A DNA stretch of 64,000 nucleotides from a virus (IMGVR_UViG_3300012952_000019:1-64000), one strand, 5' to 3'; positions 6,384-62,320 are shown, numbered from the stretch's first letter. The notes: generated by a model from the sequence alone, not told the origin. A program made the numbers and translations.

Positions 6384-6386
6384 ATA
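6379..6386 (+). promoter_or_regulatory. T4 late promoter TATAAATA (perfect)
   Basis: Exact consensus overlapping the stop of 5550-6383. Confidence 0.8.
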
Positions 6387-6409
6387 ACAAAGAGGTATTA
6401 CTCAGGCAA

Positions 6410-39900: not shown

Positions 39901-42900
39901 TCAGGTTACCATCTATGGTGCTAACCCAATCATCTATAATGGAACTTTCTTAGTTACATCAAGAGATTCTACCACTGTATTCCAATATGAACTACCTCAA
40001 CCAGGTGGAGTAATACCACAAGGTAATATTCTTGTTTCTATTGACCTTAATAAGGGTAAATCATCAAGTGCACAAATTTTAACTGCGATTGGTTCATATA
40101 CTACTAACGTTCAGAACACATTCTTCAATGACAATTATGTTTACGTTGCTTCTACAGGTATTCCCAACTATGACATAGGTCCGTTTCCTGGTTCTGCACT
40201 ATTACCTGGTAACCAAAGAAAATTAAACAGATTCCCAAGAGTTGCTCAAACTATCTCTACAAAGAACTTAATTAATCCAGGTCCTGTTGGAACTTGGGTT
40301 AACGGTGTTTCTATATGGTCATATAAGTCATCTCTATTCAAAACATTCGGTGCTGTAACTGCTATTACCATTACTAACGTTGGTCAAGACTATGATGCTG
40401 CATCTCCTCCAAATATTTCAATTACTGGTGGTGGAGGATCAGGTGCAACAGGTTCAGTTGTTGTTAATGGTTCTTTAAGCGAAGTAGAGGTTCTTACAGG
40501 TGGATCTGGTTATACATCCTCACCATTGGTCTCTATAGTCGGTGGAGGCGGTTCTGGTGCTGCTGCAACTGCTATTATCACTAAAGGTGTTGTTTCACGT
40601 ATTCTAATCAATTCTGGAGGAACTGGATATGTTTCACAACCTTCAATTACTATTGTTGGAGGCGGTGGAACTGGTGCAACTGCAACTGCAAACGTCAGAG
40701 GTCCGATCCAATCTATTGCTGTAACAAGTGGTGGTGCTTCATATACATCTAATCCTACTGTTACATTGAGTTCTGGTAGTGGTGCTGTTGCTCAAGCAAT
40801 TGTACAGAATGGTCGTATTATATCAATCGCTATTATTTCTGCAGGATCTGGTTATACAACTGCTCCTATAGTAAGTATTCAAGGTGATGGATTTGGTGCT
40901 GTTGCAAGAGCAGGTATTGATATTGATGGTGAAAACGCAGGAAGAGTAACAAGTGTTGAGATTCTCAACAGAGGTATTGGATATATTCAAGGAACTACAC
41001 TTATTAACTTAACTTCTGTTGGACAAGATGCATTGTTTACAGCAAACGTATTCCAATGGACTTATAACTTACAAGCAACTAGTTCATTAGATACTGCAAA
41101 AGGTGGAGTATTTGAAGGATTTAATAATCAGTATGGTGGAGAATATGCTCATTTATCAAACCCACAAAGATTAAGATACGTTCTTGGTGATAATTTACAA
41201 GAACCAACTGCAGGAAATATAGTTGAACAGGCAGAACAGTTAAACCATTCTCCTATTGTTGGATGGGCATTTGATGGTAACCCAATTTACGGTCCTTATG
41301 GTTACGCTGATCCTACTGATCAATCATCTGCTATCAATAGATTAAACACTTCATATCGTCTTAAAACAGAACTTGTATATGATGTAGTTACTAATCCTTA
41401 TCCTGCTAGAACCGCAGGTCCTTTACTTACTGATGAGGCAGCAGGTAATTTTGTAGAAGATTATGAGTATGTGTTTGGTTTAGGTGATCTTGATCAGTAC
41501 AATGGTCGTTTCTGTAAGACACCTGAGTTTCCTGGTGGTAGATATTGTTACTTTGTTACTGTTGACACTACTGAGCAAGGTAATCCAGTATTCCCATATG
41601 TTTTAGGTCCTAGTTTTAACTCAGTTGTTGATACTTGGAACTTAACTGACGGTGCAACTCAACAGAATATTCCTACTGGTGTTGTTAGATATCGTGATCC
41701 ATATGAGAACGTTGATATTGACGTTGAGAGGGCACCAAATGCCTCTACAAACGCTCTAACTACCGAAGATGGTGAATTGCTTGTATTTGAAGTAGAAGAC
41801 GAGAATAGGGACGCTGTGATCTCTCAGGATGAGATAGATGATCCAGATCAAATCTTTGAAGAGTCACCTCTACAGTTATTTGATTATTTCCCTAAAGTTA
41901 AGTTTGACTCTAAGGTTGATATTGAAGTTGAAACGATTACTAAGTTTGAAGATGCTTCTGTAACTGGATTTACAGTAGAAAACCCTGGTGCTTCTTATCA
42001 GGTTAATGACCGACTAGTATTTGATAATACAGATACTGATGGTACTGGTGTTTCTGCTCGTGTTTCTCATATTAAAGGAGAAGCAGTTTCAACATATGGA
42101 TATGAAAGTATTGGTGGTGTCAACTATGGTGTTCTAAAGACTACAACTCCACATAACCTAACTGTTGATGATCAGGTAGTCGTAGACTATACACCTATAA
42201 TGAACAACACTAATAAGACTTTTGTTGTTAAACAAATTAAAGGTGTTGAAGAAATTGTTATTGATCAACAAGGTTCTGGATATAATAGTGAATTACCTCC
42301 TACAATTATTCTTGATGGTGATGGAACTGGTGCAGCATTAGAAGCGGTTGTAACATCAGTAGGATCTATTTCCTCAGTTAATATTACTAACTCTGGTCAA
42401 GACTATACTACAAACCCAAGAGTTATATTATCACATCCTCAAATCTATAAGAAAGCAGATTATTATATTTCTAAGATTACAAGTAATGATTATGTTAAAG
42501 TTAATGATGTATTTGTAAATGATCAGAAAGAAGTATTCCTTTGTGGTAAAACAAAAGATTCATTTAATTATACTATAGCATTTGTAGCAAAATTATCTGC
42601 TACTGGTGTTAAAGACTGGGAAAAGACAATTAAGAGTACTGATGGTCAAAATGAAGTAGAGTTTGAAAAAATATTAGTTGATGGTCAAGATGTTTACTGT
42701 GTAGGTCATAATAGACCAAATGCAAGTATATTAGAAGCATATAACCCTGATGTTGTTCTTTGTAAGTATACACAGGCAGCAAATGGATTAAGTGCTACTT
42801 TACAGTATCAAAAAGCATATGCAGGTATATCAGGTTCTACTCGTTCTGATAATGTTAGTGCTATTGCCAAATATTCAGATACTAGATTTGTTTTAGGTGG

Positions 42901-45900
42901 TTATACAAATACTAACTCTGGTAATCCATATGATGCTTATATTGCTGTTGTAGATACACTTGGTAACTTTGCTGTTAAGAGAAAACTTACTTCTGTTAAT
43001 GTATCTGAAAAAATTACAGACTTACTTGTTGATGGAACTGACATATACTATACATTAGAAATTGCTACAAGTCCTAATGCATCAAATGTTGATACAGGTA
43101 TTGGTAAAGCAAATGTAGGTACTAGTGCCATTACTCTTCTATGGAATAAACAATTAAGTAATACACTGTATTCTTTTGAAGATTCAAGTCTTACAATAGA
43201 TGAGTTTAGTGAACTTTATATTACTGCTACAACAAAACTTAAAGCAGATAATACTACAAAAGATGGATTCTGGATTGGTAAGTTAAGCACAGAAGGAGTA
43301 TTCCTATGGAACTATCGTTATGCAGTAACTGGTGGATATACTATTCATGCTGCTAAGAGAAGTCATATTGATATTTTTGGTGATCTAAACGTTGCAATCA
43401 ACAAATATCAAAATACAGATGGTGAATTAACTGTTGACGTAGTTAAACTTGGATACAATGGTATTATTAAGAGTCATACTAATAATAAGTTTGATGTTAA
43501 TAACATTGAAGGATTAACTGCTCATACATTATATCCTGATAGTTCTGGTGATATTCATGTATATGGTCAAACTTCTTGGAATAGGAATGAACTATTATTA
43601 CCATTTACAAGTGGTGCGTCTACAGATGTTACAGGTCATTATACACCAACTTATATTTCAGAGGGTAATGGACTTCAATTTGATGCTACTAATGGATATG
43701 CAAAAATATTAGGAAAAGACTCTACTACTCCTACAACATGGGTAAATTCAGTTATACAACTTAATGGTTCTGATTTAGGAACTAAAATGACTAACGACTG
43801 GACTATTGAGTTCATGTTGTATAAAGATGCTGTAGGTAATAACAATACACATAGTCAAACACAACAAACATTAATAGCAATCGGTGATGCTACCTTGAGT
43901 ACAGGTGGTCTATGGTTGTATTATGATATTTCATCTGGACAAATGCAGTTAGTTGTTACTGCAAATGGAACTGCACTTAACTCTGCATCAGGTTCTCTAC
44001 AATCTACAGTTACTACAATGTTTGCCGATAATACTTGGCAATTCATTGCACTTACTAAATCTGCAGGTCAATATACTGCATATGTTAATGGTATACAAGT
44101 TCTTCAAGGAACTATTGATAATACTGCATTCCAGAATCAGAATTTATATATTGGTAATATTCCTGGTAAGAGTGGAACATTAAATCAATTCCTTTCTTCT
44201 TATCAAGGTCAATATCATATTGATAATCTTCGTATTAGAAACAGAGCAGTTACTCCTACAGTTCCTACTGATGTAACTAACTATCCTATTGCAGGTGAGT
44301 TTAATGAAGGATTTGATTGGCAAGATACAACATGGTTCTCTACTTACGTTAACAAATATGATTATATTGATTATGTTGGTTGGGGTATTAAGATTGATAA
44401 GAATGCCGATGCAGCAAGATTAGGTACACAAACAGCACAAACTAATACTGGAATTGGATTTACTAGAGCTAATATAGCGATTGTAGAAGGATCAGCATTA
44501 ACTGTTAATAATACAGGATTTGCTTTAGCAGAAGCAGGATTCCAAAACTTAGACTTTGATGATGCTGATACATCAATGACTCAGGATTCTTCAACATTAT
44601 CATATCTTCAAGATGTTTGGAGTTCTAGAACTGCTACTGTTCCTTCACCAGGTTCTCAAAAACTAAGAGTTACTGCTAATGTTAAAGACAGATATTACTT
44701 TAAGGTTACACCTACAGTCAAGATTGACAATATTCAAGAACTTACTCTTAATCAACAGTTTAGATTTACTACAGGTGCAAAATTAAGACTTAATAATTCA
44801 TCTGGAGTATTCCAAAATAGTGGATATATTATTAGACAAGATACTACTAATAATAAGATATATCTTGCTGTTAATATTAATGCTTGGTCAGATGATCTTA
44901 ATACTGGTGAATTAGTTACAGAACAGTTTAATGAACAAAGCACTTATGGTATTGTAGGACCTATACCTGCTGATGTTAATGAACTTATATTTACATTCCC
45001 ACTAATAAACAACACTACACCTGGTACATTTGATATTGATTTAAACAATTTCAATCACCCAGAGGGAGGTTCAAATAATCTTGATGAATTAACTAACTTT
45101 AAACCTTATACTGATGATGATTATTCTATAAGAATTGATGAAGTAGCTGGTGGTTCACCCTATATTGTTGGATCTGTTATTAACATTAACTCTGGTGATA
45201 TCAGTTACAATGCTGCATATACCACTGCACAAATTACTAATTTAACTGGTGTTCTTAAAATTACTTTAGTAGCAACACTTAAGAAGATTATACAAGTTAC
45301 TGCTGTTGCTAATAGTGATGAAGTTTATATTGTTACTGCAAATAGTCATTACCTTACTGAAGGTGAGATGGTTAACATTGATGGTAACCCATCACAAACT
45401 GTTGATAGTGTAGTTTATGATGAATATGATGGTGCTTTCCCAGTCTTCAGTGTTGTAAGTCCTGTTGAATTTACATATAAATTACCTTCTGCTGCAATAA
45501 CTTCACCAGCTACAAGTTCTGGAAGTGTTAATATCTACGTTAAGTCACCTGTTCTTAAAATGTATTATGGACATCAATATCTCTTTGATGTCAGTCATTC
45601 TTCTATGGCGGGTGGTAACTTATCATTCTCTAAAGATAATCTTTATAAACTGGAATATTCATTCAACTCTATTGAAAGAGTAGGTACACCTGGTATTACT
45701 GGTCAAGGTGTTCCTAATCCTACTGTTAAGTTAAAAGTTGATACTGAAATTGTTACTAATATTTCTTACTACTTTGATCCTTCTAGAACTGGTGCTGATT
45801 CTCCTGTTAACCCTGCAAGTTACTTAGATGTTGTTGATTCTCCATACGTAGGTAACTTTACCATTAGTTCTATATCTGGTGCAACTATTACTCGTGGTGC

Positions 45901-48900
45901 AGATACATTTAAGTTTGTTCTTGCTAATGAACCAGAAGGAAATGCTGATGTTATCAATACATCTTATAGCACAAGTTCATTGAAGGCAGTTGGTTCTATC
46001 AATGATATACGTATTGTCAATCCTGGCGGTTTCTATACTAGATTACCTGTTGTCACAACAATTCAATCATCTAGACAGATTGAGAGAGTTCAAATTGATG
46101 CACCAGGTACTGAATATGCTGTAGGTGTTTATAATAGTGTTCCTATTGCAGGTGATGGAGAAGGTGGATTTGTTTCTATTACTGTTGCTGATGGAACTGA
46201 TGATGAAGGTGTAACAATTCCTGGTCAAATACAAGAAGTTGTAGTTACATCACCAGGTAAAGGATATACTACTGCAAGTATTGATGTTGAATCTATATCA
46301 GGTATTCTTGGAGCAGGTCTAACAGGTTCTGGTGTTGATTTGAATGTTGTTATTCCTCCTGCAGGATCAGGTGCTTCTATCTTTACTAAAGGAATTAAAG
46401 TTGGTAAGATTAAGAAATTACAGAACAACAACTTTGGATATGATTATCCTCATGACTATACTTTACGTCCTGAGATTTCATTCCCAATTAACGCACAGTT
46501 AACATCTACAAGTATACTTGATAGTATTACAGTTACAGATCCAGGTTCTGGATATTCACAAGCACCAACCGTTGTTATTACAGGTGGTGGTGGACAAAAT
46601 GCAACTGCTGAAGCATCAATTAAGAATGGTCGTTTAGATGATATTATTGTTAAAGATCCAGGCTCAGGTTACTCTTCTGCTCCTACCGTTGCATTAAGAT
46701 CTTCTTTCAACTATGTTGTTAACCTTGACTTAGGATTACTACAATTTGCTTTCCCACATGGTATTGTAAATGGTTCTGAAGTTACATTGACAGTTACTGA
46801 TACTGGTGATGGTGCTGAGTTCCCATTATCAGCAGGTGCTGTTGGTCGTTTGAATTCTACTAACACATATTACGCTATTGCTGGTACTGCAAACTCACTA
46901 GAAGAAAACCAATTAAAGATTGCTATTACTGCTGCTAACGCTGCATTAGGTGACTCCTTATCGTTTGTTAACGCAGGAACAGGTCGTCAAACAATATTAA
47001 CTGAATCATTTGGTGGTGCAGCAACTGCAAACGTTGTCACATCTACATTCTTAGAAGGTGAACTTGTTTATCAAGGTGATAGTTTAGACGCTGCAACTGC
47101 TAGTGGATATGTTTCTACTAACCAAGGTTGGCAGGTAGGACCTAGAATTATTAAGATTGTTGATTACACTGGAGACTTTAATGCTAACGAAAGAATAACA
47201 GGTGTTATTTCTAAGTCTTCTGGTATCATTAGTGATCTTAAGATTGCTCGTGGTGTTCTTGAAATTGGTTCTATTACTAAAACAACAGGTCAGTTTATTG
47301 ATGACATTGGTAAACCATCCGAAATTATTCAGAAGATTCAAGATAGTTACTATTATCAGGACTTCTCATATGCTGTTAAGTCTGCTGTTTCTATTGGTGA
47401 GTGGAAAGAGATATTACTTAAGAACGTTCACCCTGCATCATTTAAAGTATTTGGTGAATTAAATCTATCTGATTATGGTCAAATTCCTAACAAGGAAACT
47501 GATTTCCAGATAACCAAAGCTGTTGAATTAGCAAGAGAAGCGATAGTTCCTAATATACAGAGTTTCTCTCTAGTTGAACCAGTTTATTCACAGTTTAATA
47601 ACTCAGAAGTATTATTCAGACAAAAAAGATTAACATCTTCAGAAAACATTTTAACATCAGTTGTACAAAGATTAGATGATATTTCTAATCAATTTGATGG
47701 TGTTAAAACTCAGTTCCCATTAAAAGTTAATGGTGAAAATGTAGTTGCTAATGCTAACCAATTAATGATTATCTTAAATGGTGTTGCTCAAACTCCTGAG
47801 ACATCATTTAATATTCAAGGTGATTCTATTGTATTCAGTCAACCACCACAACCTCCTGCTAGTGTCAAATATGTAAACGCTACTATTTCAGAGATTAATA
47901 TATCTGAAATAACATTTACTAACGTTAGTGGTATATTCCCTATCATAGGAAATACAATGGCTGGACAGACTTCTTTAGCAAGATTTACTGTCACATCTGT
48001 TATTGGTCAAGCAATTAGAGGATTCTTTGTAGAAGGAAGTGCATTTACATTTGGTGAATTGGTAAGTAATAGTGCTACAGGATTTATTGCTAATTATGAT
48101 GCTGTATCATCTATTTCTAATCTTGGATTATTTACTTTTGGTGAGCAAGTTAGTAACCTTGATGGTAAGACTGCTAGAGTTGAATCAATTAACTTAGCAG
48201 GTGGATCTTCTGATCCATTAGGTCAACTTCGTTATGGTGTAGGTCCTTCGACTGCTGCTATTGAAGTGGTAGCATCTAAAGCAGTTTCAACTGATCCTGA
48301 CACACCTCCTGCTACAGGAACATTTGCTCTTAATGCTAATTATCAAGTTGGTTCTGAGATTGTAACTGTTACTCAAATTACTGAGAATAATGATTCTACT
48401 ATATTAGAAGTAACTAGAGGTCAATTAGGTACTACAGCAGCAACACAGGCAGAAGATGGTCCTGTATATGCAACCACAGTTCTTGTTAATGATAAATTAA
48501 CTTTAAGTAAAACTACTGGAACATATCAGTCTACACCTGGTTTATTTGATCTTGCTCTTAATGATGTTATTATCGGTGCTCAGTCTGGTGTAGTTGCAAG
48601 ATTAACTGCTACATCTACATATCAAGATCCTACAACTCAAGAATTTATTGGTCAGGTTAATATTTCAGAAGGATCTTCATTCTTTGGTCTCTTATTCAAC
48701 AGAGTTACATCTATCACATATCCAAATATTGTTTTAGATGATATTTCAATATCAACAATTAGTGTTGTTGATTATGACACATATACAACTGATATTGATT
48801 CTCAATTCCCTGCTAATGAATTCATAAGTCAAATTGTTATTCCTTATGATAATGCCTCTGGTAAGTTATCTGTAGGTGAAATGATCAGGAATTATAAACT

Positions 48901-51900
48901 TGATTACGGTAATAATGTTGGAACATTTAATAGTGGTGAATCTGGTAAGTCTAGAAAACTAACATTTAGAGAAAAACAAGGAACTGGAATATTCTCTGCA
49001 GGTCAAACAATTAGAACTAGAGATACTAAGGCAGAAGTAATTGGATTTGATTTCTCAGGTGATACCATATATCTTGGTAAGATTGGTAGATCACTAAGAG
49101 GTGGTGCTGACTATCATCAATTTAACTTCTCTGGTAGTGCTCAATTAGATACTTCAATTAAGAAATTTGGAGATGCATCATTACAACTTGATCTAGCAAC
49201 AAGTGATTATATTCAAATTCCTGCATCATCTGAATTTACCCGTGGTACAGGTGATTATACTATTGAATTCCAAGTTCGTTTAGATGCAGTATCTTTAGCA
49301 GATACTAAGACTTTAGTTGATATGAGAACAAGTGCTACTGAAGTTGCACTTAGAATTTACTTACAAGCAGCACAAGTTCGTGTTAATGTTAATGGTTCAG
49401 ATATAGCAACTTCTGGTGGAAATGCTCTAAACAATAATGTTTGGTATCATCTTGTAATTCAAAGAACTGGAACTTCTCTTAAGATCTTCTCTAATGGAGT
49501 TGAGATAGGAACTGGAACTGATAGTGGTAATTATACATTAGATAGACCAATTAGAATAGGTGCTGATTATGCAGGTCTTAATCCTATAACTGCACATATT
49601 GACGAGTTTAGATATTCTGTTGTTTCACGTTATGCTACAGTACCATTCACTTCACCAAATGGTATTTTCCAAGGAGATGCAGATACTAAAGTATTATGTC
49701 ACTTTGATGGTGCTGATGGTGCAACTAAGACTGAAGATTGGTCAGGTGGAGAATCATTTACTCAAGAAGAATATTTAAACAACGATGCTCTTGCTGTAAC
49801 AGATGCTTCTTCTGCTAATGCTCCTGCAGGATTTAATAAGAAGAGTCACAGATATCTTAACGCTGCAGATTTAATGTTAATGAACAAGGAATATCTTGCT
49901 CAAGAAACAGTTTATATTATGAAGGAAGTATTCCCTGCTCATAGTGTTAAGGGTAGTGAAGTTGATTGTGAAGATGATGTAAGAGATGTTGTTGATTCTA
50001 TTGTAGATGACTTACGTAATGGTAGTAATCATCATATGTGGAAAGCAGCTTCATACTATGTTAATAGAGCTGTTAATCCTATTCAAATTGTAAACGTAGA
50101 AGATGATGTCTCTATGACAGTCTATGTTTATGAAATATTAGATAAACTTGCTAAGTATATTGTTAATAATGTTCCTTGGAGTACTCAAGGTGATCATGGG
50201 TTAACTCAGAAGTTTGACACTTCTATCACATTTGATGGTTATACATCACAAACATTAACTAAGTTTAGTCCAACTGCAATCGACTATCATCCATCAATGG
50301 GTGACATGGAAATAACAGCTGCAAGTCATGGACTCGCGGCCCCTAGAACTATAACAGCATCATCGTCGGGATACACTGCTACCACTGGTGTTTTGACAGT
50401 TGAATCTGTTGGGCACTCTCTAGAAACTGGGGACAGAATTAAGTTTGAGCCTAATTCTATTACCATGACTTGTACTTGTGATGGTAATACAGTATCACAA
50501 AGTTACCCTAGAGATGATGATCCAGCAAACCAAGGCTGGTTAGAAGTAGCGAAGATTGATAATGATAACTTTAGTGTAAATGTTGGAACATCTCCAACAG
50601 TTAACTTTACTGCGACTGCAGCAGATTATGATAGTAATACTGGTTTCTTAACTATGGACATTGGTGACAATGACCTAAGACCAGGCAGTAAGTATACTGT
50701 TTCTAGTGCAGCATATAATCCTACTAGTGGTGTAATGACAGTTGGTATTGGTAATGACCAGTACAATGTTCATGATGCTGATTACAGTCCTACAAGTGGA
50801 GATTTAGAAATCTATACTGGAACACATAATTTAAAAACAGGACAGTTTATTAAGATTGCTAATAATGGTATTACATTTAGATGTTCTCAAGATGATTATG
50901 CTACTAATCATCCATATCCAAGAGCAACTGACCCTGCACGTGATACAGCATTAGAAGTTCTTCATGTAACTGATACATCATTCACAGTAAACGTTGGTAA
51001 ATCTCCTATCGTTGAATACGATGTTTCTAATGCAACCTTCAATCCTAATACAGGTGAGATGACATTGACTATTGGAAATCATAGTTTATCTGCAAATACT
51101 TCTATTAGAATTAAGACTCAAAGTATTGGATTTACATGCACATATGGTGCAGGTGTTCATTACTATCCAAGACCTCTAATTGATGAGCATAACGTAAGTG
51201 ATGCAGCATATAATCCAACAACAGGTGTAGTAACATTAACTATTCCTCAAGGACATGGTATGAAGGATGGTGATAAGGTTAAGATTCCTGATTACTCACT
51301 TTCATTCACATGTGATAAAGATAGTAATGCAACTACTCACAGATATCCTAGACCTTATGATCCTATTAGTGATAGATGGATCGAAATAAGTAATGTTCAA
51401 TCAACAAGTATTGATATTCAAGTATTAGATACTGCTCCTTCCACAAATACATCTACTCACACCTTTATAAGTTTCACAGGTGCAATTCAACAGAAACGTG
51501 ATAAGTCATTTGAACAATCTATTTCTATTGCTTCAGTAGGTCCAACAACAATTACTCTTAATGTTGGTATCTCAAGTAATACAACAACTCATACATATTC
51601 AACTTCATTAGCGGGTGCTGTTCAAACTGGTGGTAATTATAAACATAAGTTTAGGTCCGCACTGACTAATGCTATAACTGTAGAGCATGGCTTATATGTT
51701 GGTGATAGAGTTATGTTTGATAGAGACTCACTAACATTTACATGTCTTGAAGACGGTGGTGCTACTGAGCACACATATCCAAGAATTACAGATCCTTACT
51801 ATAACAAGTGGTTACCTATTTCTAATGTAACTCATACAACATTTGATGTTCAGGTACTAAGTTCTACACCTTCTACTAACCAAACTGCTCACACATTTGT

Positions 51901-54900
51901 TCGTGCTAAAGCAAATGGTTTAACAAGATCTGGTGAAACACTAAAACTTGCTAAAGATGCATTATCATTTACATGCTCACAAGATAATGATGCTACTGTT
52001 CATTCTTATCCTAGAGTTGATGATAGTGTTTACAATACTGCTATTCCAATTTGGAGTAATGGTAGCACTAGAATGACTGCCCAGAGTGCACTTTATAATA
52101 CTGCAACTGGAATGTTAACCATTACAATTTTGAATCATGGTTTAACAGTAGGCACTGAACTAAGATTAGAGAATAAATCATTAGTCTTTACATGTGCTAA
52201 AGATGGAAATAAAACAGAGCATGCATATCCAAGACCTAAAGATCCATTTGCTGCTAGATGGTTAAGAATTAAAGCAGTTACTGATCATACATTTACATTG
52301 TTTATTGGTGAAGCAAGTGCTACAGGTCAATATGCTCACACATTTATAAGAGCAGTTAAAGATGGTATTGTAAAACGTGATAATACTGTTACTGTTAACG
52401 TTGGTGCTACTCCAACTAAGGCGTATACTCCATCTGCTGCAACTTATAATGCTAGTACTGGTGCTTTAGAATTAAATGTTGGATCACATAGTTATCCTGC
52501 TCCAACACAACATACACCAACTGATGTTGCTTACAATCCTGTTAGTGGTGTAATGACTCTGACTATTGCAGGTCATAACTTCTCTAATGGTGAGAAAATT
52601 AAGATTGCTGATAATGGTATTAAATTAAGTTGTCCTTATGGTGGTGCAACTGGAACTGCTGCACAAAAAGACTATCCACGTTCTACTGACCCAGTTAGCA
52701 ACAAATGGATTCCAATATTCAACGTAACTACAGATACTTTTGATGTTCAAGTTCTAGATTCAACTCCTTCTACTAACGTTGATACTCATACATTTGTAAG
52801 TGCAGTTAATAACTGCGTTAGCAAGGCAAATTATACTGTTAAACTTGCTCCTGATTCATTAGTAATGACATGTGATATGGATAGTGGTGCTACTAAACAT
52901 CTATATCCAAGATCTAATGTTGCTACTCATACTCCATCTACAGGTACATCTTACAACCCAGTAACAGGTGCTCTTACAGTTTCAATTCCTACTGAATCAT
53001 TTACTGCTAGTGCTGCAAATTATAACGTTACAACTGGTGCTTGTGTATTAACAATATCTCAGAATGCAGGATCATATAATGTTACTGGAGCAACTTATGC
53101 ACCTACAACTGGTGTTCTAGTTCTTACACTTGGAGGAGGATCTCATAGTTTAACAACTAACGATAGAATTAAAATTACTCCAGAATCACTTAAATTTACA
53201 TGTGATTATAACAACGATAATAATACAACAATTCATCCTTATCCTCGTGCTGCAGGTGCTTACAACTCAACAAATTCAAAAGCAGATTATGCTTATGATA
53301 CATGGTTAGATATCACTGCTGTAAGTTCAACAACTATCACTGTTAATGTTAATGGTGGACAGGGTGCTATTACTGATATCAGTAACCATACATTTGTTGG
53401 TGCACTTGATGGTGCAGTTCAAGTTGGTCATGGTATAGTACCTGGCAACAAAGTTAAACTTGCTCCTAACTCACTAACATTTACTTGCACATTAGATGGC
53501 AACACTGCACAAAAATCTTATCCTAGATCAACAGGTGCTAATACAACAAGTGGTGCTGACTATGCTTATGATAAGTGGCTCAGAGTTATGGATGTTGGTG
53601 ACAATACTATAACTGTTAACTTGAATGGTGGTCAAGGTGCTATCTCAGATACATCAGCACATACATTCGTTTCAGCTACTGCAAATGGTATTACCCTTGG
53701 ACACGGTATGGTTGCTGGTACACCTATTAAGATCAAAGATGGTGGCGTAACATTCAGATGTGCCCATGATAATAATGCTACTTTACATCCTTATCCTAGA
53801 GCAACTGATCCTGCAAGTGACAAATGGTTGTTTATCAAGAATGTAAGTGATACTCAATTTGAAGTTGATATTTTACAAGGAACAACTCCTACAAATACAA
53901 CAACTCATACTTATGCAGGTTCTATGGATAATTGTATTATCCAAGGAGATCCACTTGTTGCTCAAGCAATTCCTATTGATGCTGTAACAGGAAGTACTAT
54001 TACTATCAATGCTTTAGATGGATATACACCTTCATTCACACCAAACCATACTTTAGATTCTGTATCTACATCTCAATTTACACCAACTAATGCAGTTTAC
54101 GATGGATCTACAGGTGAGATAGCAATAACAGTTGCTACCACTACGTTTACTCCTTCTACTGTTGCTTACAATGCAATAACTGGTGAGATGCAAATGACTA
54201 TCGGAAGTCATAGTTTAGCAGTTGGAGAAGAGATATTAATTGCTGCCAACTCATTAACATTTACTTGTGATTTCAATGGAGATGGAAATACTACAAATAA
54301 AACATATCCTAGAGCAACAAATGCATCGACTCCTACTGGTTCTGACTTTGCGTACAATAATCATTTACAAATTACTGATACAACAGCAACAACAATTACT
54401 GTTAACGTAAATGGTGGTGGAGGAGCAATTACTGATACAACTAATCATGTATTTGTTTCTGCAACTGCTGATGCTATCAGTGTTTCACATGGAATTAAAA
54501 CTGGAGAGAAAATAAAGATTGCTAATAATGGTATTACATTTACATGTCTTGAAGATAGTAATGCGACAAATCATCCATATCCAAGACCAACTGATCCTGC
54601 TAGTGGTAGATGGTTAGATGTTGTTGCAACTACAAATAATACATTCACTGTTCAAGTATTAGATGAAATCCCATCAACCAATATTACAGCTCATACATTT
54701 GTTTCTGCTACAACAAATGCTATTACAAGAGCGATAATTTCAACTGGTGGTAACTACAAACATAAGTTTATATCTGGTCTTACAAATGGAGTTAGAACAG
54801 GTGGTGACTATACTCATACATTCGTTTCTGCAACTACTAATGGAATACATGTTGCAGGTGACTCAGTATACCTTGAGGATAATTCAATAAGATTTACTTG

Positions 54901-57900
54901 TTCTCAAGATAATCATTTAACACAACATGATTATCCAAGAGTAACTGATCCTGCAAGTAAGCATGTAATGGAAGTTAAGACTGTAGATAATGATAGATTT
55001 GTAATTAACGTTGGTAAGTCACCACAAGAAAAACGTTACGATCATTTATTTGTTAGTGCAAATGCTAATTCTGTTATTAAGTCTAAGTATCAAATTACAA
55101 ATTGTTCTGATGTTTATACAACTACAAATAACTTAATTGATATTCTTAGAGATACAATAACTCAAGCTGCTTTACCATCTCCTGTAGATCATCTTGCAAC
55201 TATTACTGATCTTCTTCCAGTACAAGAGTTTGTTGGTGGTAGAGTATATTCATATCTTGAGGTTCCATTTAAGATCACTTATGAAGATGATGCTCAGGAA
55301 ATGGTATACACAGATAGAATCGATGTATTCAGTCGTTACAGATTCCGTGATGCTGCTAATTTAATTCGTCAGAATACAGGTGCTATTGTAGATAAGGCAT
55401 CATATGATATGTTAGTTCGTTATCCTGCTCTTTATCAGGATATGCCTAGAAACCAAGGTGGTGCATCTACAGATGGAATTGAGCGTTGTAAGACTGACCT
55501 TACACAGGTTTGTGGTGGAGTTGCTAATGATATAGAAAATGGTGGTAATGATAATGTTATTACTGCTGCAGGATTCTACATTGGTGCTAATAATATGATC
55601 CAACATATTAGATTACAGTTACCACAATCTATCTACGTTCATGAGCGTTTAATATATTACTTAAAGCAAGCAATAGATGGAACTTTAACAACTGATAATA
55701 CAGAAAATCTTATCGTTGGAGATTGGGGTATTACAAATGATGATAGTGTAACAACCTACGATGTATATGGTGCAACTTATGATGCAGGTTCTGGTGATTT
55801 AACAATGACTCTTGCATCAAACACTGGATCATATAGTGTTACTGGTGCAGTTTATAATCCAACATCAGGTGATTTAACACTTACAATCGGAACTCATACT
55901 TTAACAACCAATGACAAGGTTGGAATTGCTACTGAGTCATTAGTCTTTACTTGTGATTACAATAGTAATGGTAACCAAACTCAAAAGAGATATCCTAGAT
56001 CATTCGGTGCTAATACTACAAATGGTGCTGATTATGCATATAATCAATTCCTTGATATTACTGCTGTAAACCAATCAGGCGGTACAATCACTGTTAATGT
56101 CAATGGTGGTCAAGGTGCAATTACAGACACCACAACTCATAACTTTGTATTAACCCCATCTGCTACAAACGCTGTAACTGTTGGACATGGATTTAGTGCA
56201 GGTGATAGTTTACAAATAGGAAATGAAGCATTAACATTTACATGTTCAATGGATGGTAACGTTTCTAATAAAACATATCCTCGTGCAACTGACCCTGCAT
56301 ATGGTAAGTCACTTACAATTACAAATGCTACTGCTACAACTGTAACTGTTAATGTAGGAACTACTCCAGAAGTTAAATACACACCAACATTTGCAACTTA
56401 TAACGCTCAAAGCGGTATAATGGTTCTTACTATTGGTAACCACAATTTACAAACTGGACAACCAATTAAGATCAATGGTGGTGCATTGAAGTTTACTTGT
56501 GAGATGGATGGAAATGAAGCAATCAAATCTTATCCAAGAACAACTGATCCATTCTATGACAAACCTATTGATATTACTGCAACTACAGCAGATAGTATTC
56601 AGTTAAACGTTGGAACAAGTCCAATAGTTTTACATAATGTTTCTAATGCTACTTACAATCCTACTACAGGTGTAATGGTATTGACACTCAATGTAAACCA
56701 CGGATTAGTTGCTGGTACTAGCATTAGACTTGCTACTGAATCATTAGTCTTTACTTGCACATTAGATGGTAATACAGTTCAGAAATCATATCCTCGTTCT
56801 ACTAGTGCTAATACAGGAACAGGTGCTGACTATGCATATAATACTGCAATCAATATTGATTCTGCAGATCAAGCAGCAGGAACAATTACTATTAACGTAA
56901 ATGGTGGACAAGGTGCTATATCTGATACATCAGCACATACATTTGTTTCTGCTAATTCTGGTGCTGTAAGATCTGGTGGTGATTATGTTCACACATTCTA
57001 CTCTGCAGATACAGAATCTGTAATAGCAGGTGGTGAATACACTCACGTATGGGCAGGTGGTACTGCTACAGATGCAGTTAGTGTTATCGGTGATTGTGCA
57101 GATGTTAAGACTAATATTGAATCATTAATAACAACAGTTAATGATATAATTGCACCTACTGGAAAAGATTTTGATACTGCAGGTAATAGACTATACTTCA
57201 ACAGAGAACTTATTGCACAAGATGTTACTTCTAATATGGTGCAGGAGTTTACATATCAAGCAGGTCCTACAACATACTATGGATTCCAATTTGGTGGTAA
57301 TAATTTATTAGATACAGAATTCCAAGCTGATGTAGAACTTCTAGTTAAGTCATTAATATCTGACTTACAAACTGGTGGTAATAATAGTTCTGTTAAGGCA
57401 CTTGAAGATACATATCTCAATGCAGATGGAACTCTTCATAGAATTGAAGATATGGTTATGGCAACTGTATTTGGTATGGAAAAACTTAAAGAAGTTGGTC
57501 GTGAAGTAATTAGAAATAATGTATATAACGCATTTGAGAGTCAACCATTTGGTGCATATTCAACACAATCTGGTTTCACTGCATATAGAGATACAGAAGA
57601 AACAGTTGATATAGATGCTGTTGTTGGAGAATGGAATAATCTTCTTGATCATGTAATTGAGTTCTTCTCACCTGGTCAAAAGATTATGAGAAGTGGTATG
57701 AAACAAATACTGTTTAATTCAAACTACTATAAGAATGAATTAAACAATCTTGTTAATACTCAGTTTGGTAATGGTCAGTGGATTTATAATGATTTTGTAG
57801 ATGAGTTACTTGGAAATATGATCCAAGATTCTATTACAACTGATGTATCTCATATGCAAGATGCATATAGATTAACTCTTACAAGTGTAACTGGAGAGTT

Positions 57901-60900
57901 TAGAGTTGGTGAAGTTGTAACTGCTGCAGGTGGTGGATATGCTACGATTCTTGAATGGGATAGTAAAGATAGACATCTTTATATTAGTTCATTCCTTAGC
58001 GGTACAATCTCTGGTGGTGAAACTGTTACAGGTCAAACAGGTGGTGCTGCAACTGTAACTACTGGTGGAGTTGGTAAGAAATTTGACTGGTATACACATC
58101 CTGCAAACGTAGAAATTCTTAGAAATGCAAGATTAATTAGTTCTCAGGTTCAAGATCAATTAATAGGTCAAAACGTTGGTTATAATTATCCAGAAGATTT
58201 ATCTAGTGGAAATACACTTACTAATTTAACAGTATCAGCAGACGTAACTGCTGCTCCTGATAATGCATTAAGTGCTGATAAACTTGTTGCTACCACAACT
58301 GTTGGAGAACATTTTGTATTTAATAATTACAGTTTGAATGCGTTTGAAACATTTGACTCTGGTAACGTTACCTTCGATACTAGTGGAGAAACATTTGATA
58401 CTGGACAAGTAGGAACTCAGGAATCTCAGCAATTTACTTATTCTGTATTCTTGAAGCAAGGTGAATATACTAAAGCACGTTTCATGGTTTCTCTTGATGA
58501 AGATACAGCTCAGAGACAGCAAGCATTCTATGATATTGATTTAACAAATGGAACTACAGGTAGTATATTCCAACCTCAAGGTGGTCTTACAATAGATGCA
58601 TCTGGAGTTATACCTTATGGTGGAGGATGGTATAGAGCATACATTACAATTACATGTTCATTCGGTTTCCAACAACTTCGTCAACAAGTACAAATTAAGA
58701 ATGCTACTGGTCAAACTAGTTTTGCAGGTAATGCATCTGATGGTTTATTTGCATGGGGTCAAAAGTTAACTAAAGGATTAATTGATCCATATGCTGCTAC
58801 ATCTGGAGATGTATTCTATGCTGATACAGAGTATAACATTAAGACATACACAATCGATAAATTAGAAAATTGGATTTATGATGCATTAAAAGATCAATTA
58901 CTTAATCCTTCTCCAGAGTCAGGTTTCGTACCTTACTTTAGTGATAGTGATGCACAGAATTATCATCCAGAGTCAGTTCATAGATTAGTAAGATATAGTT
59001 TAGATATTATCCGTAATCAATTATTAAATAGCACTTACTATACTGACATTATTGTTCAAAATGGAATAGTTGCTCCTGCTAAAGATTATGGAACATTTGA
59101 TATTCCTGTTGGATTAGCAGGTGGTCTAAACAATGCTGATTACTTATATGGTTTAGAAAGTGGTTCATATGCTGAACTAGAAAAAGTAACTATGAACGAA
59201 GGTGAAGTCGTTCAAGTATATCAAAGATTCCGTATTGATGCTAATATTGTTGATGGTCCTTACTTCATGAATGAAGTAGTTCAGAAACAAGGTGATAGCA
59301 CAGTTACAGGTATTGTTTATGGATTCTATGAAGATGATAACTTCAAATATCTTGATGTTGCAGTTACTGGTGGAACATGGACAGTATTAGATTATGTTGT
59401 TGGTGCAACTAATACAACAACTGCACAAATTAATGCTATTGAAGATAGGATACAAATCACTGATCTTATGGGTGAGTTCACAGATAATATTCCATTCAAG
59501 GGATATGATTCTGGTGAAACTGCAATTCCAACTGGATTCTTAAAAGCACAAGCTGCTGTTACTGACAATAGTGGTGGTAAATTAACTGTTGATACTGAAA
59601 CATTAATAGGTACATTTGAAACTACTGCTACAATATATCCTGAGCAATCTAAATTGTTTATTGATGTTACTAGGTATGAAGGATTAGATGTATTAATAGG
59701 TTATAGAATATCATCTGCAGGACATACAAGAATTGGTATTACAATTCAGAATAATAAAAATGTATTTGTAGTAGGTAATAAACTTAATAAGATTACAAAT
59801 GGTATTATTGACGCTAACAACTTTGGTTATATTACTGAAATTGATCTTGATAATAATATTCTTTACTACATCTTAGCATCAGGAAATATTACTAATGGTG
59901 ATCAGGTTGGTGATTTTGGTGTTGCTCCTGATCCACTCAATCCATTAGGACATGCAGTAATCAATACTAAGTTAGATGTTGCAGGTGCTGCTACTGCAGT
60001 AATTCAAGACATTAAAGAAGTTGGTGTTAACAAACGATTCTATCTAACAAATGTAACAGGAACATTCAGTGGTAGAGATGGAATCTTTAGTAAGGATAAT
60101 TACAAGGCAGCTATCATAACTAAGACTGATCTTAAGGGACGTGTCGAACGTGCATTCAGAGGATTTGATGGATCACAAACTAACTTCAAGTTAACTATTT
60201 CAAACGGAACTCCATACTTCCCAGATCCTGCAGGACATATGTTGATATTCATTAACGGTGTTCTACAACCACCAGGTTCAGCAAATGCTTATACAGCATT
60301 CTCAGATAACATTCAGTTTACTGAAGCACCTGATCTTGGAGCATCATTCACAGGATTCTATGTTGGTAAGTTAAGACAGTTAGATGATATATCATTTGAG
60401 TTTGATTCATTACGTCAGTCATTCAACTTGAAACGTGACGATGTGTTCTACTCATTGACGCTGACTGATGGTGTTCAATCTTCTACAATCTTACCAGAAA
60501 ATAATATTATTGTTTCACTCAATGGTGTTATACAGGAACCAGGCGTTGGTTTTGAATTGGTTGGTTCTAGAATAATCTTCTCTGAGATTCCTCGTGTAGG
60601 ATCAACATTCGTTGCATTCTCATACGTTGGTTCTGAGGCAGACGTTGATGCTGCAGAAGTTGTACCACCAATAGAGGTTGGTGACTTTATTGATATACAA
60701 GGTGAGACTGAAGACAGACAGGTTGCTGTTATTGAATCTTCTAATTCACTTATTACATTTGATTATCTTGGATCTGTATTTGGACAGAATGCTAAAGCAT
60801 CCGCGACTTTAGTATCTGGAACTATTGATAGAGTTCAAGTAACATCTGGTGGATCTGGTTACACAACTAGACCAAATGTAAGAGTTGACTCTATATCTGG

Positions 60901-61093: not shown

Positions 61094-62320
61094 ATGGCTA
61101 AACAAACACTAGGTCTTGGATCTGCTGCAAACGATAATACAGGTGACACTCTTCGTGCAGGTGGTGACAAGATAAACGACAATTTTAGCGAAGTATATAC
61201 TGCTTTAGGAAATGGAACTAACCTAACGGTGACTCTTGCCAACCCTGCTGTTGGACATGTGTTGCGTTATAATGGTTCAACGTTCACTCCTTCTGATTAT
61301 ACACAGTTAACTTCTGCTCTTGACGTAAATAATAATTCTATAATTTCTTCTTCCAATGGCAATATTGTTCTTGCTCCTAATGGAACAGGTGATGTCACTA
61401 TTTCTAACGGTGGTATTACTAGTACTTTTGAAGGAACTGACGGGACTATTGATTTCCCTACTACTATCAAATATAAGAACGAATACGCAGCGATAGGATC
61501 AACTCCTTCTGCTGCAACATATACTGGATATTTCTTTACTGTAGATGGTGATGATAATCCATATGTTAATATTAATATTACTGCAGGTGGTGTTGGAGAT
61601 ACACAAGCAAAACTTTTAACAGAGTATTCTACTCTTGGTCAAATTGGAAACGTAGATACAACATCGAATGCTCCTACTGATGGTCAATTATTAAAGTGGA
61701 GTACTTCATTAAGTAAATGGGCACCTGCAGATGATCTAGCTGGTGCAGGATCACAAAATTTATGGGAATCTATTGTTGCTGATACAGGAACTACAACTGC
61801 CGATTCTGCAACTGATTCTTTAACATTCACTGGTGGAACAGATATTGCAACTGCTATTACTGGTGATACAGTAACGATTAATTATACTGGAACTCCTGTA
61901 ACAACATTTGCTGCTCTAACTGATACTGATCTATCAGGAATAGTTAAAGGTGATGCAATTTATTGGAATAATACTGACTGGGTTGTATCTAGAAGTCCAG
62001 TTATTTGGTGGAACTTAAACTCTAGTGGTGCATCTGATTACACCTTCTCTGGTCCTGGTTTTACTGGTGCTGTAAATGACCCAACTCTTTATGTTTATAG
62101 AGGATTTACTTATATCTTTGATAACTCAGTTCAAGGTGGTGCTCATCCATTTAGAATTCAAAGCACACAAGGTTTAACTGGAACTCCATATGTGGCAGGT
62201 CAGTCAGGTAGTGGATCCAATATTCTTTATTGGACAGTTCCATTGGATGCTCCTGCAACTCTTTATTATCAATGTACACTCCATTCTGCTATGAATGGAA
62301 CAATCAACGTAGCGGTATAG
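61094..62320 (+). CDS. gp9: baseplate / tail-fibre connector gp9-like protein with C-terminal cupredoxin-like domain
   Basis: N-terminus MAKQ.L.LG..AND.TGDTLR.GG.KIN.NF.E.Y of T4 gp9/gp10; C-terminal HPF...LYYQCTLHSAM; ATAAATA at 61069. Confidence 0.8.
   Translation: MAKQTLGLGSAANDNTGDTLRAGGDKINDNFSEVYTALGNGTNLTVTLANPAVGHVLRYNGSTFTPSDYTQLTSALDVNNNSIISSSNGNIVLAPNGTGDVTISNGGITSTFEGTDGTIDFPTTIKYKNEYAAIGSTPSAATYTGYFFTVDGDDNPYVNINITAGGVGDTQAKLLTEYSTLGQIGNVDTTSNAPTDGQLLKWSTSLSKWAPADDLAGAGSQNLWESIVADTGTTTADSATDSLTFTGGTDIATAITGDTVTINYTGTPVTTFAALTDTDLSGIVKGDAIYWNNTDWVVSRSPVIWWNLNSSGASDYTFSGPGFTGAVNDPTLYVYRGFTYIFDNSVQGGAHPFRIQSTQGLTGTPYVAGQSGSGSNILYWTVPLDAPATLYYQCTLHSAMNGTINVAV

What the first reader, a model, noticed from the sequence alone, without database searches (positions are those of the whole stretch)
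50264..55081. Recursively nested (Russian-doll) domains encode a branched, tree-shaped protein
Seen: the module has four ordered parts: A 'A.Y.P.TG.M.LT', B 'H.L..G..IKI....L.FTC..D.....H.YPR', C 'TDP....WL.I......FTVNVG' and D 'HTFVSA..NAI'. Read linearly the order is A1 A2 B2 C2 A3 A4 A5 B5 C5 A6 B6 A7 B7 C7 D7 C6 D6 D5 B4 C4 D4 B3 C3' [A8-D8] C3'' A9 [A10-D10] B9 A11 A12 [A13-D13] B12 C12 D12 B11 C11 D11 C9 D9' A14 [A15-D15] B14 C14 D14 D9'' D3 D2 B1 C1 D1. Every opener closes in last-in-first-out order, giving the tree 1(2(3(4(5(6(7))),8,9(10,11(12(13)),14(15))))): 15 domains, depth 7, two three-way branch points, five different insertion sites. Domain 1 is completed about 1500 residues after it starts. 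Inference: the module has adjacent N- and C-termini and tolerant loops, so repeated copy-into-loop events build a dendritic, multivalent appendage, and folding must proceed inside-out. I know of no described example at this depth.
Basis: partly seen in the sequence, partly recalled or inferred. Interest (0 to 1): 0.92.

Follow-up and report, generated by a model that had tools for sequence, protein, structure and literature searches.

The report
Russian-doll domains in cyanophage baseplate protein
A giant tail-baseplate protein of a marine cyanobacterial virus contains 19 copies of one small module, most of them inserted inside loops of other copies up to seven levels deep, which is a larger example of an arrangement so far described mainly in cyanobacterial RNA polymerase.

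Summary
The finding lies in one 8036-aa ORF (36962-61072, +) at the gp7 position of a T4-like cyanomyovirus baseplate gene block. Profiles built only from contiguous copies recover the parts A, B, C and D in last-in-first-out order. Each reconstituted domain matches full length a profile made from other phages' contiguous copies.

Inserts use five sites (profile positions 18, 24, 55, 70, 81-83). The same five recur in 571 split domains across the family. Four coincide with small-indel hot spots.

Supporting evidence:
- Couplings from 1152 contiguous copies put the N- and C-termini in contact.
- Split pieces keep 46-93% of the partner-specific coupling of intact domains.
- Orphan pieces are under the same purifying selection as intact domains.
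- Relatives differ by gain or loss of whole sub-trees.

I corrected the tree: 14(15) is a sibling of 9, and D9 is not split.

Recursion of this kind is already described in cyanobacterial RNA polymerase Si3 (six levels), so this is a new, larger variant rather than a new principle.

The parts
36962..61072 (+). Giant ORF, 8036 aa (P0001). It occupies the gp7 position of the baseplate wedge block and is a 'virion structural protein'.
   Evidence: phrog_701 matches over aa 2-4000 and Pfam Baseplate_wedge PF23786 matches at aa 674-730 (40.8 bits, cut-off 27). The flanking ORFs match phrog_219, phrog_677 and phrog_708, all baseplate wedge families.
50252..55081 (+). Nested cluster 1: domains 1-15, aa 4431-6040. 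Tree: 1(2(3(4(5(6(7))),8,9(10,11(12(13))),14(15)))).
55751..57085 (+). Nested cluster 2: domains 16-19, aa 6264-6708. Tree: 16(17,18(19)).
50252..50344 (+). Domain 1, piece 1 (A1 plus the start of B1, cut at site II).
54848..55081 (+). Domain 1, piece 2 (rest of B1, C1, D1). It resumes about 1500 residues after piece 1.
50345..50599 (+). Domain 2, piece 1 (A2 B2 C2, cut at site V).
54800..54847 (+). Domain 2, piece 2 (D2).
50600..50686 (+). Domain 3, piece 1 (A3, cut at site II).
51926..52069 (+). Domain 3, piece 2 (B3 plus the first half of C3, cut at site IV).
52376..52417 (+). Domain 3, piece 3 (second half of C3, cut at site V).
54740..54799 (+). Domain 3, piece 4 (D3).
50687..50758 (+). 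Domain 4, piece 1 (A4, cut at site I).
51677..51925 (+). Domain 4, piece 2 (B4 C4 D4).
50759..51013 (+). Domain 5, piece 1 (A5 B5 C5, cut at site V).
51626..51676 (+). Domain 5, piece 2 (D5).
51014..51181 (+). Domain 6, piece 1 (A6 B6, cut at site III).
51497..51625 (+). Domain 6, piece 2 (C6 D6).
51182..51496 (+). Domain 7, contiguous. It is the innermost copy, at depth 7.
52070..52375 (+). Domain 8, contiguous, inserted inside C3.
52418..52504 (+). Domain 9, piece 1 (A9, cut at site II).
52826..52921 (+). Domain 9, piece 2 (B9, cut at site III).
53939..54070 (+). Domain 9, piece 3 (C9 plus the degenerate D9).
   Evidence: This is the weakest reconstituted domain: 71 bits, profile positions 1-93.
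52505..52825 (+). Domain 10, contiguous.
52922..52993 (+). Domain 11, piece 1 (A11, cut at site I).
53693..53938 (+). Domain 11, piece 2 (B11 C11 D11).
52994..53068 (+). Domain 12, piece 1 (A12, cut at site I).
53420..53692 (+). Domain 12, piece 2 (B12 C12 D12).
53069..53419 (+). Domain 13, contiguous, long-C subtype.
54071..54139 (+). Domain 14, piece 1 (A14, cut at site I).
54479..54739 (+). Domain 14, piece 2 (B14 C14 D14).
54140..54478 (+). Domain 15, contiguous, long-C subtype.
55751..55825 (+). Domain 16, piece 1 (A16, cut at site I).
56177..56371 (+). Domain 16, piece 2 (B16 C16, cut at site V).
57023..57085 (+). Domain 16, piece 3 (D16).
55826..56176 (+). Domain 17, contiguous, long-C subtype.
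56372..56626 (+). Domain 18, piece 1 (A18 B18 C18, cut at site V).
56969..57022 (+). Domain 18, piece 2 (D18).
56627..56968 (+). Domain 19, contiguous, long-C subtype.
34935..36956 (+). Upstream neighbour: gp6-like baseplate wedge subunit.
   Evidence: phrog_219, E 4.2e-220.
61094..62320 (+). Downstream neighbour: baseplate wedge / tail fibre connector.
   Evidence: phrog_677, E 3.3e-189.

Best explanation
What it is. The region is part of the giant gp7-position baseplate protein of a T4-like marine cyanomyovirus. It is built from 19 copies of one beta-rich module of about 100 aa that has no Pfam family. Twelve of the 19 copies are discontinuous, because one to four further copies sit inside them.

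How it arose (inferred). Whole module-coding segments, or whole already-nested sub-trees, were repeatedly inserted in frame into five permissive loop positions of existing copies. They were also lost again as whole units.

How it works (inferred, not shown). The module's chain ends lie next to each other, so a guest closes the host's loop without any linker. Each host can then still assemble from sequence-distant pieces. The polypeptide folds into 19 complete domains whose connectivity is a tree: depth 7 in cluster 1 and depth 3 in cluster 2.

Likely role (inferred). The array probably forms a peripheral, rapidly remodelled part of the baseplate, acting in adhesion or as a spacer.

Shown here: the grammar, the exact tiling, the five sites, the coupling pattern, the selection on pieces and the sub-tree indels. 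Inferred: co-folding of the pieces, the 3D shape and the function.
For: 1. LIFO order. Three parser faults are observed, all from one weak D, against at least 36 in 4000 shuffles.
2. Exact tiling. The two clusters tile once into 19 domains of 99-117 aa. Each is a single full-length hit, 71-134 bits, to an outside profile. Split domains score 71-134 bits and contiguous ones 92-134.
3. Five discrete sites in the window. The same five hold family-wide in 571 unique clean split domains: junction counts are 72, 106, 141, 86 and 271 at profile positions 18-19, 24-25, 55, 68-70 and 81-85.
4. Loop character of the sites. Small-indel hot spots of 1158 intact copies lie at positions 18, 55, 70 and 78-80.
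5. Fold from couplings. Mean-field couplings from 1152 intact copies (effective number 706) give antiparallel ladders A(13-18) with C(72-77), B(28-31) with C(60-65), and B(39-42) with D(87-92). They also give N-C terminal contacts 2-99 and 2-98.
6. Partner specificity of inter-piece coupling energy. Real split domains give mean z 0.64-1.33. Held-out intact domains cut virtually at the same sites give 1.24-1.59.
7. Nest pairing against crossed pairing. Nest pairing wins in 201 of 205 non-redundant parent-child pairs. Outer pieces alone prefer each other over the inner domain's pieces in 137 of 205 and 161 of 205.
8. Selection. dN/dS of orphan pieces of 35 aa or less is 0.18-0.23, the same as for intact domains (0.18-0.23).
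9. Whole-unit indels. P0012 lacks exactly 5(6(7)) (aa 4599-4908) and 12(13) (aa 5352-5580). L010 and P0003 carry an extra complete ABCD between A2 and B2. L010 carries one more inside B6.
10. Conservation of a nest as a unit. The 3-level unit 5(6(7)) aligns almost without gaps at 39-47% identity across lineages.
11. Stability among close relatives. 8 of 8 close relatives whose held DNA spans both clusters share the topology.
12. Baseplate context.
Against: - No structure could be predicted, so co-folding of the pieces is inferred only.
- The coupling and pairing tests cannot fully separate physical contact from common descent of the two pieces of a once-intact domain.
- The signal is weakest at site V, the commonest site: z 0.64, and outer-N prefers outer-C in only 64 of 107. 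The three 'GG.Y.H.F' closers (D5, D3, D2) are assigned by the LIFO rule, not independently.
- Family-wide, my caller leaves 1685 violations and 1119 open domains among 15,839 elements. Many sequences are fragments and weak A or D elements are missed, but real departures from nesting cannot be excluded.
- Only 7 of 25 large indels in five pairwise alignments are balanced sub-trees. The other 18 are out of register or unresolved.
- D9 is degenerate, and domain 9 reaches only profile position 93.
- The function has no direct evidence.
Confidence: 0.8

Rival explanations
1. The sequence is nested, but the 3D structure is interdigitated or domain-swapped. The order arose by insertion, yet neighbouring copies exchange strands and pack into one elongated compact body, as in RNA polymerase Si3, rather than forming 19 separate domains on a free tree.
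For: The only solved precedent behaves this way. [quoted passage not shown] There are no linker residues between host and guest. Partner preference at site V is weaker.
Against: Nest pairing beats crossed pairing in 201 of 205 pairs. Split domains keep 46-93% of the intact-domain coupling specificity. Every reconstituted domain is full length.
Confidence: 0.15
2. The pieces are decayed or partial tandem repeats. The orphan A and D pieces are relics or linkers that no longer complete any domain, and only the contiguous copies and the long B-C-D pieces fold.
For: Some outer pieces score weakly: A1 8.8 bits, A2 4.8 bits, D9 not called. No structure is available.
Against: The tiling is exact with nothing left over, and the counts of A, B, C and D are equal. 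Orphan pieces have dN/dS 0.18-0.23, equal to intact domains and at or below the non-repeat spacer (0.21-0.44). The pieces retain partner-specific couplings. The same split pieces are conserved at about 40% identity across lineages.
Confidence: 0.04
3. The pattern is an assembly artefact or a chimeric contig that produces scrambled repeat order.
For: None was found. G000 is a linear fragment estimated at 53% complete.
Against: There is one uninterrupted 8036-aa frame. The copies are only 60-84% alike at DNA level. The identical element string occurs in 8 independent contigs. The same architecture occurs in 238 cultured cyanophage records.
Confidence: 0.01

Closest known systems
Si3 insertion of cyanobacterial RNA polymerase beta-prime (RpoC2): recursively inserted SBHM/HABAS domains
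   Same: Copies of one small beta domain are inserted into other copies of the same family. This gives discontinuous domains, multi-level nesting and hosts with more than one guest. PMC10895346 (passages) reports eight SBHMs, four of them built from distant segments. PMC13114784 (passages) reports '6-level recursive insertion architecture', 8-10 domains and bifurcating nodes. PMC11515920 (passages) reports HABAS domains inserted into HABAS domains. HABAS carries a GD-box-like motif, and the phage module has a conserved 'G-D/E-x-I-x-I' after its 'H-G'. That resemblance is a lead only.
   Different: No sequence similarity was detected. The profile of 120 copies finds no RNA polymerase chain in the PDB at E up to 10, and no RNA polymerase family is among the 25 Pfam families listed of 43. 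The phage array has 19 domains, depth 7 and five insertion sites. It sits in a virion baseplate protein rather than inside an enzyme's trigger loop. Its tree varies widely between relatives.
T4 gp7 (baseplate wedge protein) and the cyanomyovirus 'gp7 / virion structural protein' giants (phrog_701)
   Same: The gene lies between a gp6-like gene and further wedge genes. Pfam Baseplate_wedge matches above its cut-off. The P-SSM4 homologue is annotated 'gp7: baseplate wedge initiator'.
   Different: At 8036 aa it is several times the size I recall for T4 gp7 (about 1000 aa; recalled, no call). The nested-module region has no counterpart in any named family.
Ordinary single-level domain insertion (A1-B-A2), e.g. 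small beta barrels such as E1 FCCH or the endosialidase beta-barrel, which I recall as inserted domains
   Same: The guest's ends are adjacent and it sits in a host loop. There are weak Pfam hits to E1_FCCH (17 of 120 copies) and End_beta_barrel (12 of 120).
   Different: The hits are far below the cut-offs (13-16 bits against 29.5) and cover only about 22 residues. Here host and guest belong to the same family, and the insertion is iterated.

Membership tests
Recursively nested same-family domain insertion (the type described for RNA polymerase Si3) | The parts of one domain family occur in properly nested (last-in-first-out) order, and excising the guests restores full-length hosts. | tested here: met
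   exact tiling, 19 of 19 full-length reconstituted domains, and 3 faults against at least 36 in shuffles.
Recursively nested same-family domain insertion (the type described for RNA polymerase Si3) | Discontinuous domains are seen to fold from sequence-distant segments in a solved or confidently predicted structure. | not testable with these tools
There is indirect support only, from couplings and selection.
HABAS / SBHM domain family (CATH 2.40.50.100) | Detectable homology to SBHM/HABAS domains. | tested here: inconclusive
   No RNA polymerase chain appears in the profile-against-PDB search at E up to 10. No profile-profile or fold comparison was possible. I could not fetch a cyanobacterial RpoC2 sequence (one search gave no loci).
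T4-type gp7 baseplate wedge protein | Position in the baseplate wedge gene block, next to gp6-like and other wedge genes. | tested here: met
   phrog_219 upstream, phrog_677 and phrog_708 downstream.
T4-type gp7 baseplate wedge protein | A match to a wedge-subunit family above the curated cut-off. | tested here: met
   PF23786 Baseplate_wedge scores 40.8 bits against a cut-off of 27, but over only aa 674-730, profile positions 165-221 of 284. phrog_701 and phrog_2885 also match.
T4-type gp7 baseplate wedge protein | Presence in the virion baseplate. | not tested
   The only basis is the annotation 'virion structural protein' in the P-SSM3 and P-SSM4 records. There is no proteomics or structure for this phage.
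Pfam E1_FCCH (PF16190) / End_beta_barrel (PF12195) | A score above the gathering cut-off. | tested here: not met
   The best window copy scores 13.1 bits and the whole region 16.1 bits, against a cut-off of 29.5. Only profile positions 3-24 of 70 are covered. 17 and 12 of 120 copies hit at E up to 1.

The most novel reading that the evidence does not exclude
This may be the deepest and most branched natural case of recursive domain-in-domain insertion. A phage-specific module with five permissive loops acts as a 'grammar'. By gaining and losing whole sub-trees, it generates many different tree-shaped baseplate appendages across marine cyanomyoviruses. Each tree would fold into complete discontinuous domains and would tune adsorption to Prochlorococcus and Synechococcus.
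Probability: 0.4. Interest if true: 0.85.

Novelty: new variant of a known kind. Interest (0 to 1): 0.72.

Why it matters
If the pieces do co-fold, this family is a natural library of hundreds of different nested architectures built from one module. It has defined permissive sites and needs no linkers. That makes it a test bed for three questions: how discontinuous domains fold (order of folding, co-translational constraints over 1500 residues), whether structure predictors can handle deep nesting, and how to design domain insertions.

It also explains part of the extreme size and size variation of the largest gene of marine T4-like cyanophages. It points to a baseplate region that is remodelled by sub-tree gain and loss and may bear on host range.

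The principle itself is already known from RNA polymerase Si3. The value here lies in scale, diversity and a second independent family, not in a new principle.

Tried and rejected
Structure.
- Structure prediction was called with alignment A3 (26 rows for 4(5(6(7)))).
- Complex prediction was called with A5 and A6 (the N- and C-halves of split domain 6, 22 rows each). It was unavailable.
- No fold, fold search or complex result therefore exists.

Other closed or empty tools.
- The protein-atlas search does not hold the sequence.

Family naming.
- Pfam gives nothing above cut-off on the module.
- PDB search finds nothing by sequence at E up to 1. By profile the best hit is E 0.055, an iota-carbonic anhydrase, taken as chance.
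- PHROGs gives only unnamed or generic families: phrog_1276 and phrog_5342.

Link to HABAS/SBHM. I tried to obtain a cyanobacterial RpoC2 through the genome search with TIGR02388. Only control tallies came back and no sequence, so the link stays untested.

'Copy into the neighbouring loop'. Rejected for this protein: parent-child identity is 0.369 against 0.376 for other pairs.

Pairwise alignments with P0006 and P0009. They gave only out-of-register gaps, 0 of 12 balanced, so I draw nothing from them.

Technical failures.
- The search for related loci with the 7-copy alignment A1 failed because it had no conserved stretch.

Literature. Searches for a description of this phage architecture found none:
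- cyanophage / nested domain / domain insertion
- cyanophage baseplate cryo-EM gp7
- cyanomyovirus giant / largest gene / virion structural protein
The library lacks most subscription journals. Supplements were closed and may hold proteomics of these proteins.

Full report
Context. The finding lies inside a single open reading frame, 36962-61072 on the + strand, 8036 aa. The only other ORF of 80 aa or more overlapping 48000-58000 is an 81-aa frame on the minus strand. The window is a T4-like marine cyanomyovirus. The nearest cultured records are Prochlorococcus phages P-SSM3, P-SSM4 and P-RSM3, at only 74-77% nucleotide identity over 5-9% of the region. The held record is a 94,483-base linear fragment estimated at 53% complete. 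The giant gene follows a gp6-like wedge gene (phrog_219) and precedes phrog_677 and phrog_708 wedge genes. Its first half matches phrog_701 'virion structural protein', Pfam Baseplate_wedge (aa 674-730, 40.8 bits against a cut-off of 27), YHYH and Laminin_G_3. The P-SSM4 homologue is annotated 'gp7: baseplate wedge initiator'. No Pfam family covers the region of the finding. No PDB chain matches it by sequence.

Checking the observation. A regular expression finds seven contiguous A-B-C-D copies of 100-131 aa. Sub-profiles for A, B, C and D were made from these seven only. Iteration and a second pass on the unassigned stretches recover the weak pieces, including the two halves of C3 with complementary profile coordinates, 5-14 and 17-29. 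With profiles broadened on 121 homologues, the caller gives 76 elements: 19 A, 19 B, 20 C and 18 D. A stack parser closes 18 domains and leaves 3 faults. All three follow from one uncalled, degenerate D ('TPNHTLDS', aa 5693-5702). In 2000 shuffles of the element order the minimum was 38 faults, and 36 when only B, C and D were permuted.

Excision test. I assigned every residue of aa 4431-6040 and 6264-6708 to one of 19 domains. The assignment covers each residue exactly once, with no linker left over. Each reconstituted domain is 99-117 aa. Each gives one hit spanning profile positions 1-3 to 93-101 of 101 against a profile built from 113 contiguous copies of other phages, with the window's own copies left out. 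Scores are 71-134 bits for the 12 split domains and 92-134 bits for the 7 contiguous ones.

The tree. My tree is 1(2(3(4(5(6(7))),8,9(10,11(12(13))),14(15)))) plus 16(17,18(19)). Only two D elements follow D14 (aa 5932 and 5950), and domains 3 and 2 need them. D9 must therefore be the weak unsplit D at 5693-5702, and 14(15) is a second guest in site V of domain 3, not a guest of 9. Depth 7 and the roughly 1500-residue gap inside domain 1 stand.

Insertion sites. In profile coordinates the cuts fall as follows:
- position 18: domains 4, 11, 12, 14, 16
- position 24: domains 1, 3, 9
- position 55: domains 6, 9
- position 70: domain 3
- positions 81-83: domains 2, 3, 5, 16, 18

The family. A region search returns 285 giant homologues at E up to 0.001 among 631 scored candidates. 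A profile of 120 contiguous copies finds 752 representative proteins among 1.84 billion, 248 of them at E up to 1e-30. A tblastn search of cultured phages finds 238 records, all cyanophage or marine virus, under names such as structural protein, gp7, tail fibre and short tail fibre. The parser finds 1314 clean contiguous and 804 clean split domains, with clean sub-tree heights up to 7. It also records 1685 violations and 1119 unclosed domains among 15,839 elements. Many of these sequences are fragments and weak A or D elements are missed. I cannot exclude some real departures from nesting. In sequences with 40 or more elements there are 1972 faults in 12,926 elements, against 9228 after one shuffle of each.

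Sites across the family. In 571 unique clean split domains the junctions cluster at the same five sites: 72, 106, 141, 86 and 271 at positions 18-19, 24-25, 55, 68-70 and 81-85. A further 31 fall at position 101, which I take as boundary artefacts. In 1158 intact copies, small insertions and deletions concentrate after positions 18 (16%), 55 (25%), 70 (5%) and 79 (14%), with deletions at 78-80 (30-43%). Four of the five domain-insertion sites therefore coincide with loop-like indel hot spots. Site 24 does not, and the hot spot at 41-47 is hardly used.

Fold inferred from couplings. Structure prediction was off, so I computed mean-field direct couplings from 1152 unique contiguous copies (effective number 706, 101 positions). 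The top pairs form antiparallel ladders: A(13-18) with C(72-77), B(28-31) with C(60-65), a hairpin B(36-40) with B(45-50), and B(39-42) with D(87-92). The pairs 2-99 and 2-98 join the two chain ends. This is a compact all-beta domain in which A touches B, C and D and the termini are adjacent. It is a statistical inference, not a structure.

Do the split pieces still belong together? Four tests bear on this.
- Partner specificity. Couplings were trained on 80% of the contiguous clusters. Held-out intact domains cut virtually at the five sites prefer their own other half with mean z 1.24-1.59. Real split domains give 0.93, 1.18, 1.33, 1.13 and 0.64 at sites I-V, from 21, 28, 33, 20 and 115 non-redundant cases.
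- Nest against crossed pairing. For parent-child pairs, the nest pairing beats the crossed pairing in 20/20, 25/25, 33/33, 20/20 and 103/107 cases.
- Outer domain alone. The outer N piece prefers the outer C piece over the inner one in 137 of 205 cases. The outer C piece prefers the outer N piece in 161 of 205.
- Selection. Against five close relatives, dN/dS of orphan pieces of 35 aa or less is 0.18-0.23. Intact domains give 0.18-0.23, long pieces 0.26-0.28 and the non-repeat spacer 0.21-0.44.
These results fit continued co-folding. The coupling tests cannot fully exclude a signal inherited from the time before each split.

Evolution.
- The eight close relatives (83-87% identity over the 5(6(7)) unit) whose held DNA spans both clusters share the identical element string.
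- More distant relatives have different trees.
- In E-INS-i pairwise alignments, 7 of 25 indels of 60 aa or more are exactly balanced sub-trees. P0012 lacks 5(6(7)) (310 aa) and 12(13) (229 aa). P0012 and P0003 lack the spacer plus cluster 2. L010 and P0003 have an extra ABCD between A2 and B2. L010 has one inside B6. The other 18 indels are out of register or unresolved, including all 12 in P0006 and P0009.
- The 3-level unit 5(6(7)) aligns nearly gap-free at 39-47% identity with units from other lineages. Nested units are therefore inherited, and probably moved, as wholes. Some homologues carry 5-7 tandem copies of a 4-level unit.
- Parent and child are no more alike than other pairs, 0.369 against 0.376.
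- A 'long-C' subtype (domains 12, 13, 15, 17, 19) is enriched among leaves: 153 of 1090 leaves against 25 of 429 hosts, Fisher p 3e-6.
- The DNA copies are 60-84% alike, so the duplications are old.

What is known. The profile has no significant PDB match; the best is E 0.055. Pfam gives only sub-threshold hits to the small beta barrels E1_FCCH (17 of 120 copies) and End_beta_barrel (12 of 120), covering about 22 residues around the 'H-G...G-D-x-I-x-I' motif. The principle is not new.
- Passages of PMC10895346 describe eight SBHMs in cyanobacterial RNA polymerase Si3, four of them built from distant segments.
- Passages of PMC13114784 call this a six-level recursive architecture with 8-10 domains and bifurcating nodes, the most complex case in a survey of 48,551 insertion events.
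My searches found no description of the phage architecture. The library is incomplete and supplements were closed.

Verdict. The nested-insertion reading is well supported at the level of sequence, evolution and covariation. The claims about a branched 3D shape and inside-out folding are untested, because structure prediction and complex prediction were unavailable. The claim of no precedent is wrong. I rate this a new, larger and more diverse variant of a known kind, in a module family without a name, in the largest gene of marine T4-like cyanophages.

Noticed in passing
window 55751-57085 (aa 6264-6708): A second, self-contained nested cluster 16(17,18(19)) lies 223 residues downstream of the finding. 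It is flanked by non-repeat sequence and would be a natural 445-aa construct for experiments.
   Followed up: yes
module profile positions 21, 40, 49, 89 (e.g. aa 5205, 5224, 5274 in domain 10): His21, Cys40, His89 and Phe91, with Tyr51, Pro52, Arg53 and Asp56, are present in at least 90% of 120 copies (these are dom.hmm positions; one search lists the same residues as H21, C40, Y54, P55, R56, D59, H92 and F94 of domain 10). His49 is often Lys or Gln. Cys40-His89 and Tyr51/Pro52-His89 are coupled. This could be a structural metal site or a buried polar cluster.
   Followed up: no
P0022, P0030, P0049, P0054, P0057, P0059: These homologues consist of 5-7 tandem copies of one 4-level nested unit (element string ABCABCABCABCDCDDD). 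Whole nests are therefore duplicated in tandem. P0022 and P0030 lie on contigs of 238 kb and 258 kb.
   Followed up: partly
window domains 12, 13, 15, 17, 19: A 'long-C' subtype has 8-10 extra residues after profile position 55 and an 'N-G-G-x-G-A-I' turn. Its members are the most similar copies in the protein (up to 64% identity). Family-wide it is enriched among innermost leaves (Fisher p 3e-6).
   Followed up: partly
aa about 330-620, 1090-1290 and 7950-8030 of the giant ORF (window about 37950-38820, 40230-40830, 60810-61050): Another short repeat family, with 'G-G-S-G-Y-T/S ... P-x-V-x-I' units, recurs in several blocks of the same protein. I saw it in the translation. It has not been analysed.
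   Followed up: no
aa 1355-1537, 2265-2432, 4080-4217 of the giant ORF: The same protein holds a YHYH domain (PF14240, E 1.8e-31) and two Laminin_G_3 / concanavalin-like domains. The second Laminin_G_3 domain lies about 215 residues upstream of the nested region.
   Followed up: no
homologues P0008, P0010, P0026, P0039, P0044-46 and others: The precomputed Pfam lists of several giant homologues include PF00502 (as I recall, the phycobilisome protein family). That is odd for a phage structural protein and may be a spurious or repeat-driven hit.
   Followed up: no
L010 (IMG/VR contig; 70% identity over the aligned residues): This relative has about 10 more domains in the same region (115 elements against 76), including a 596-aa extra block opposite window aa 4963 that my caller could not parse cleanly.
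   Followed up: partly
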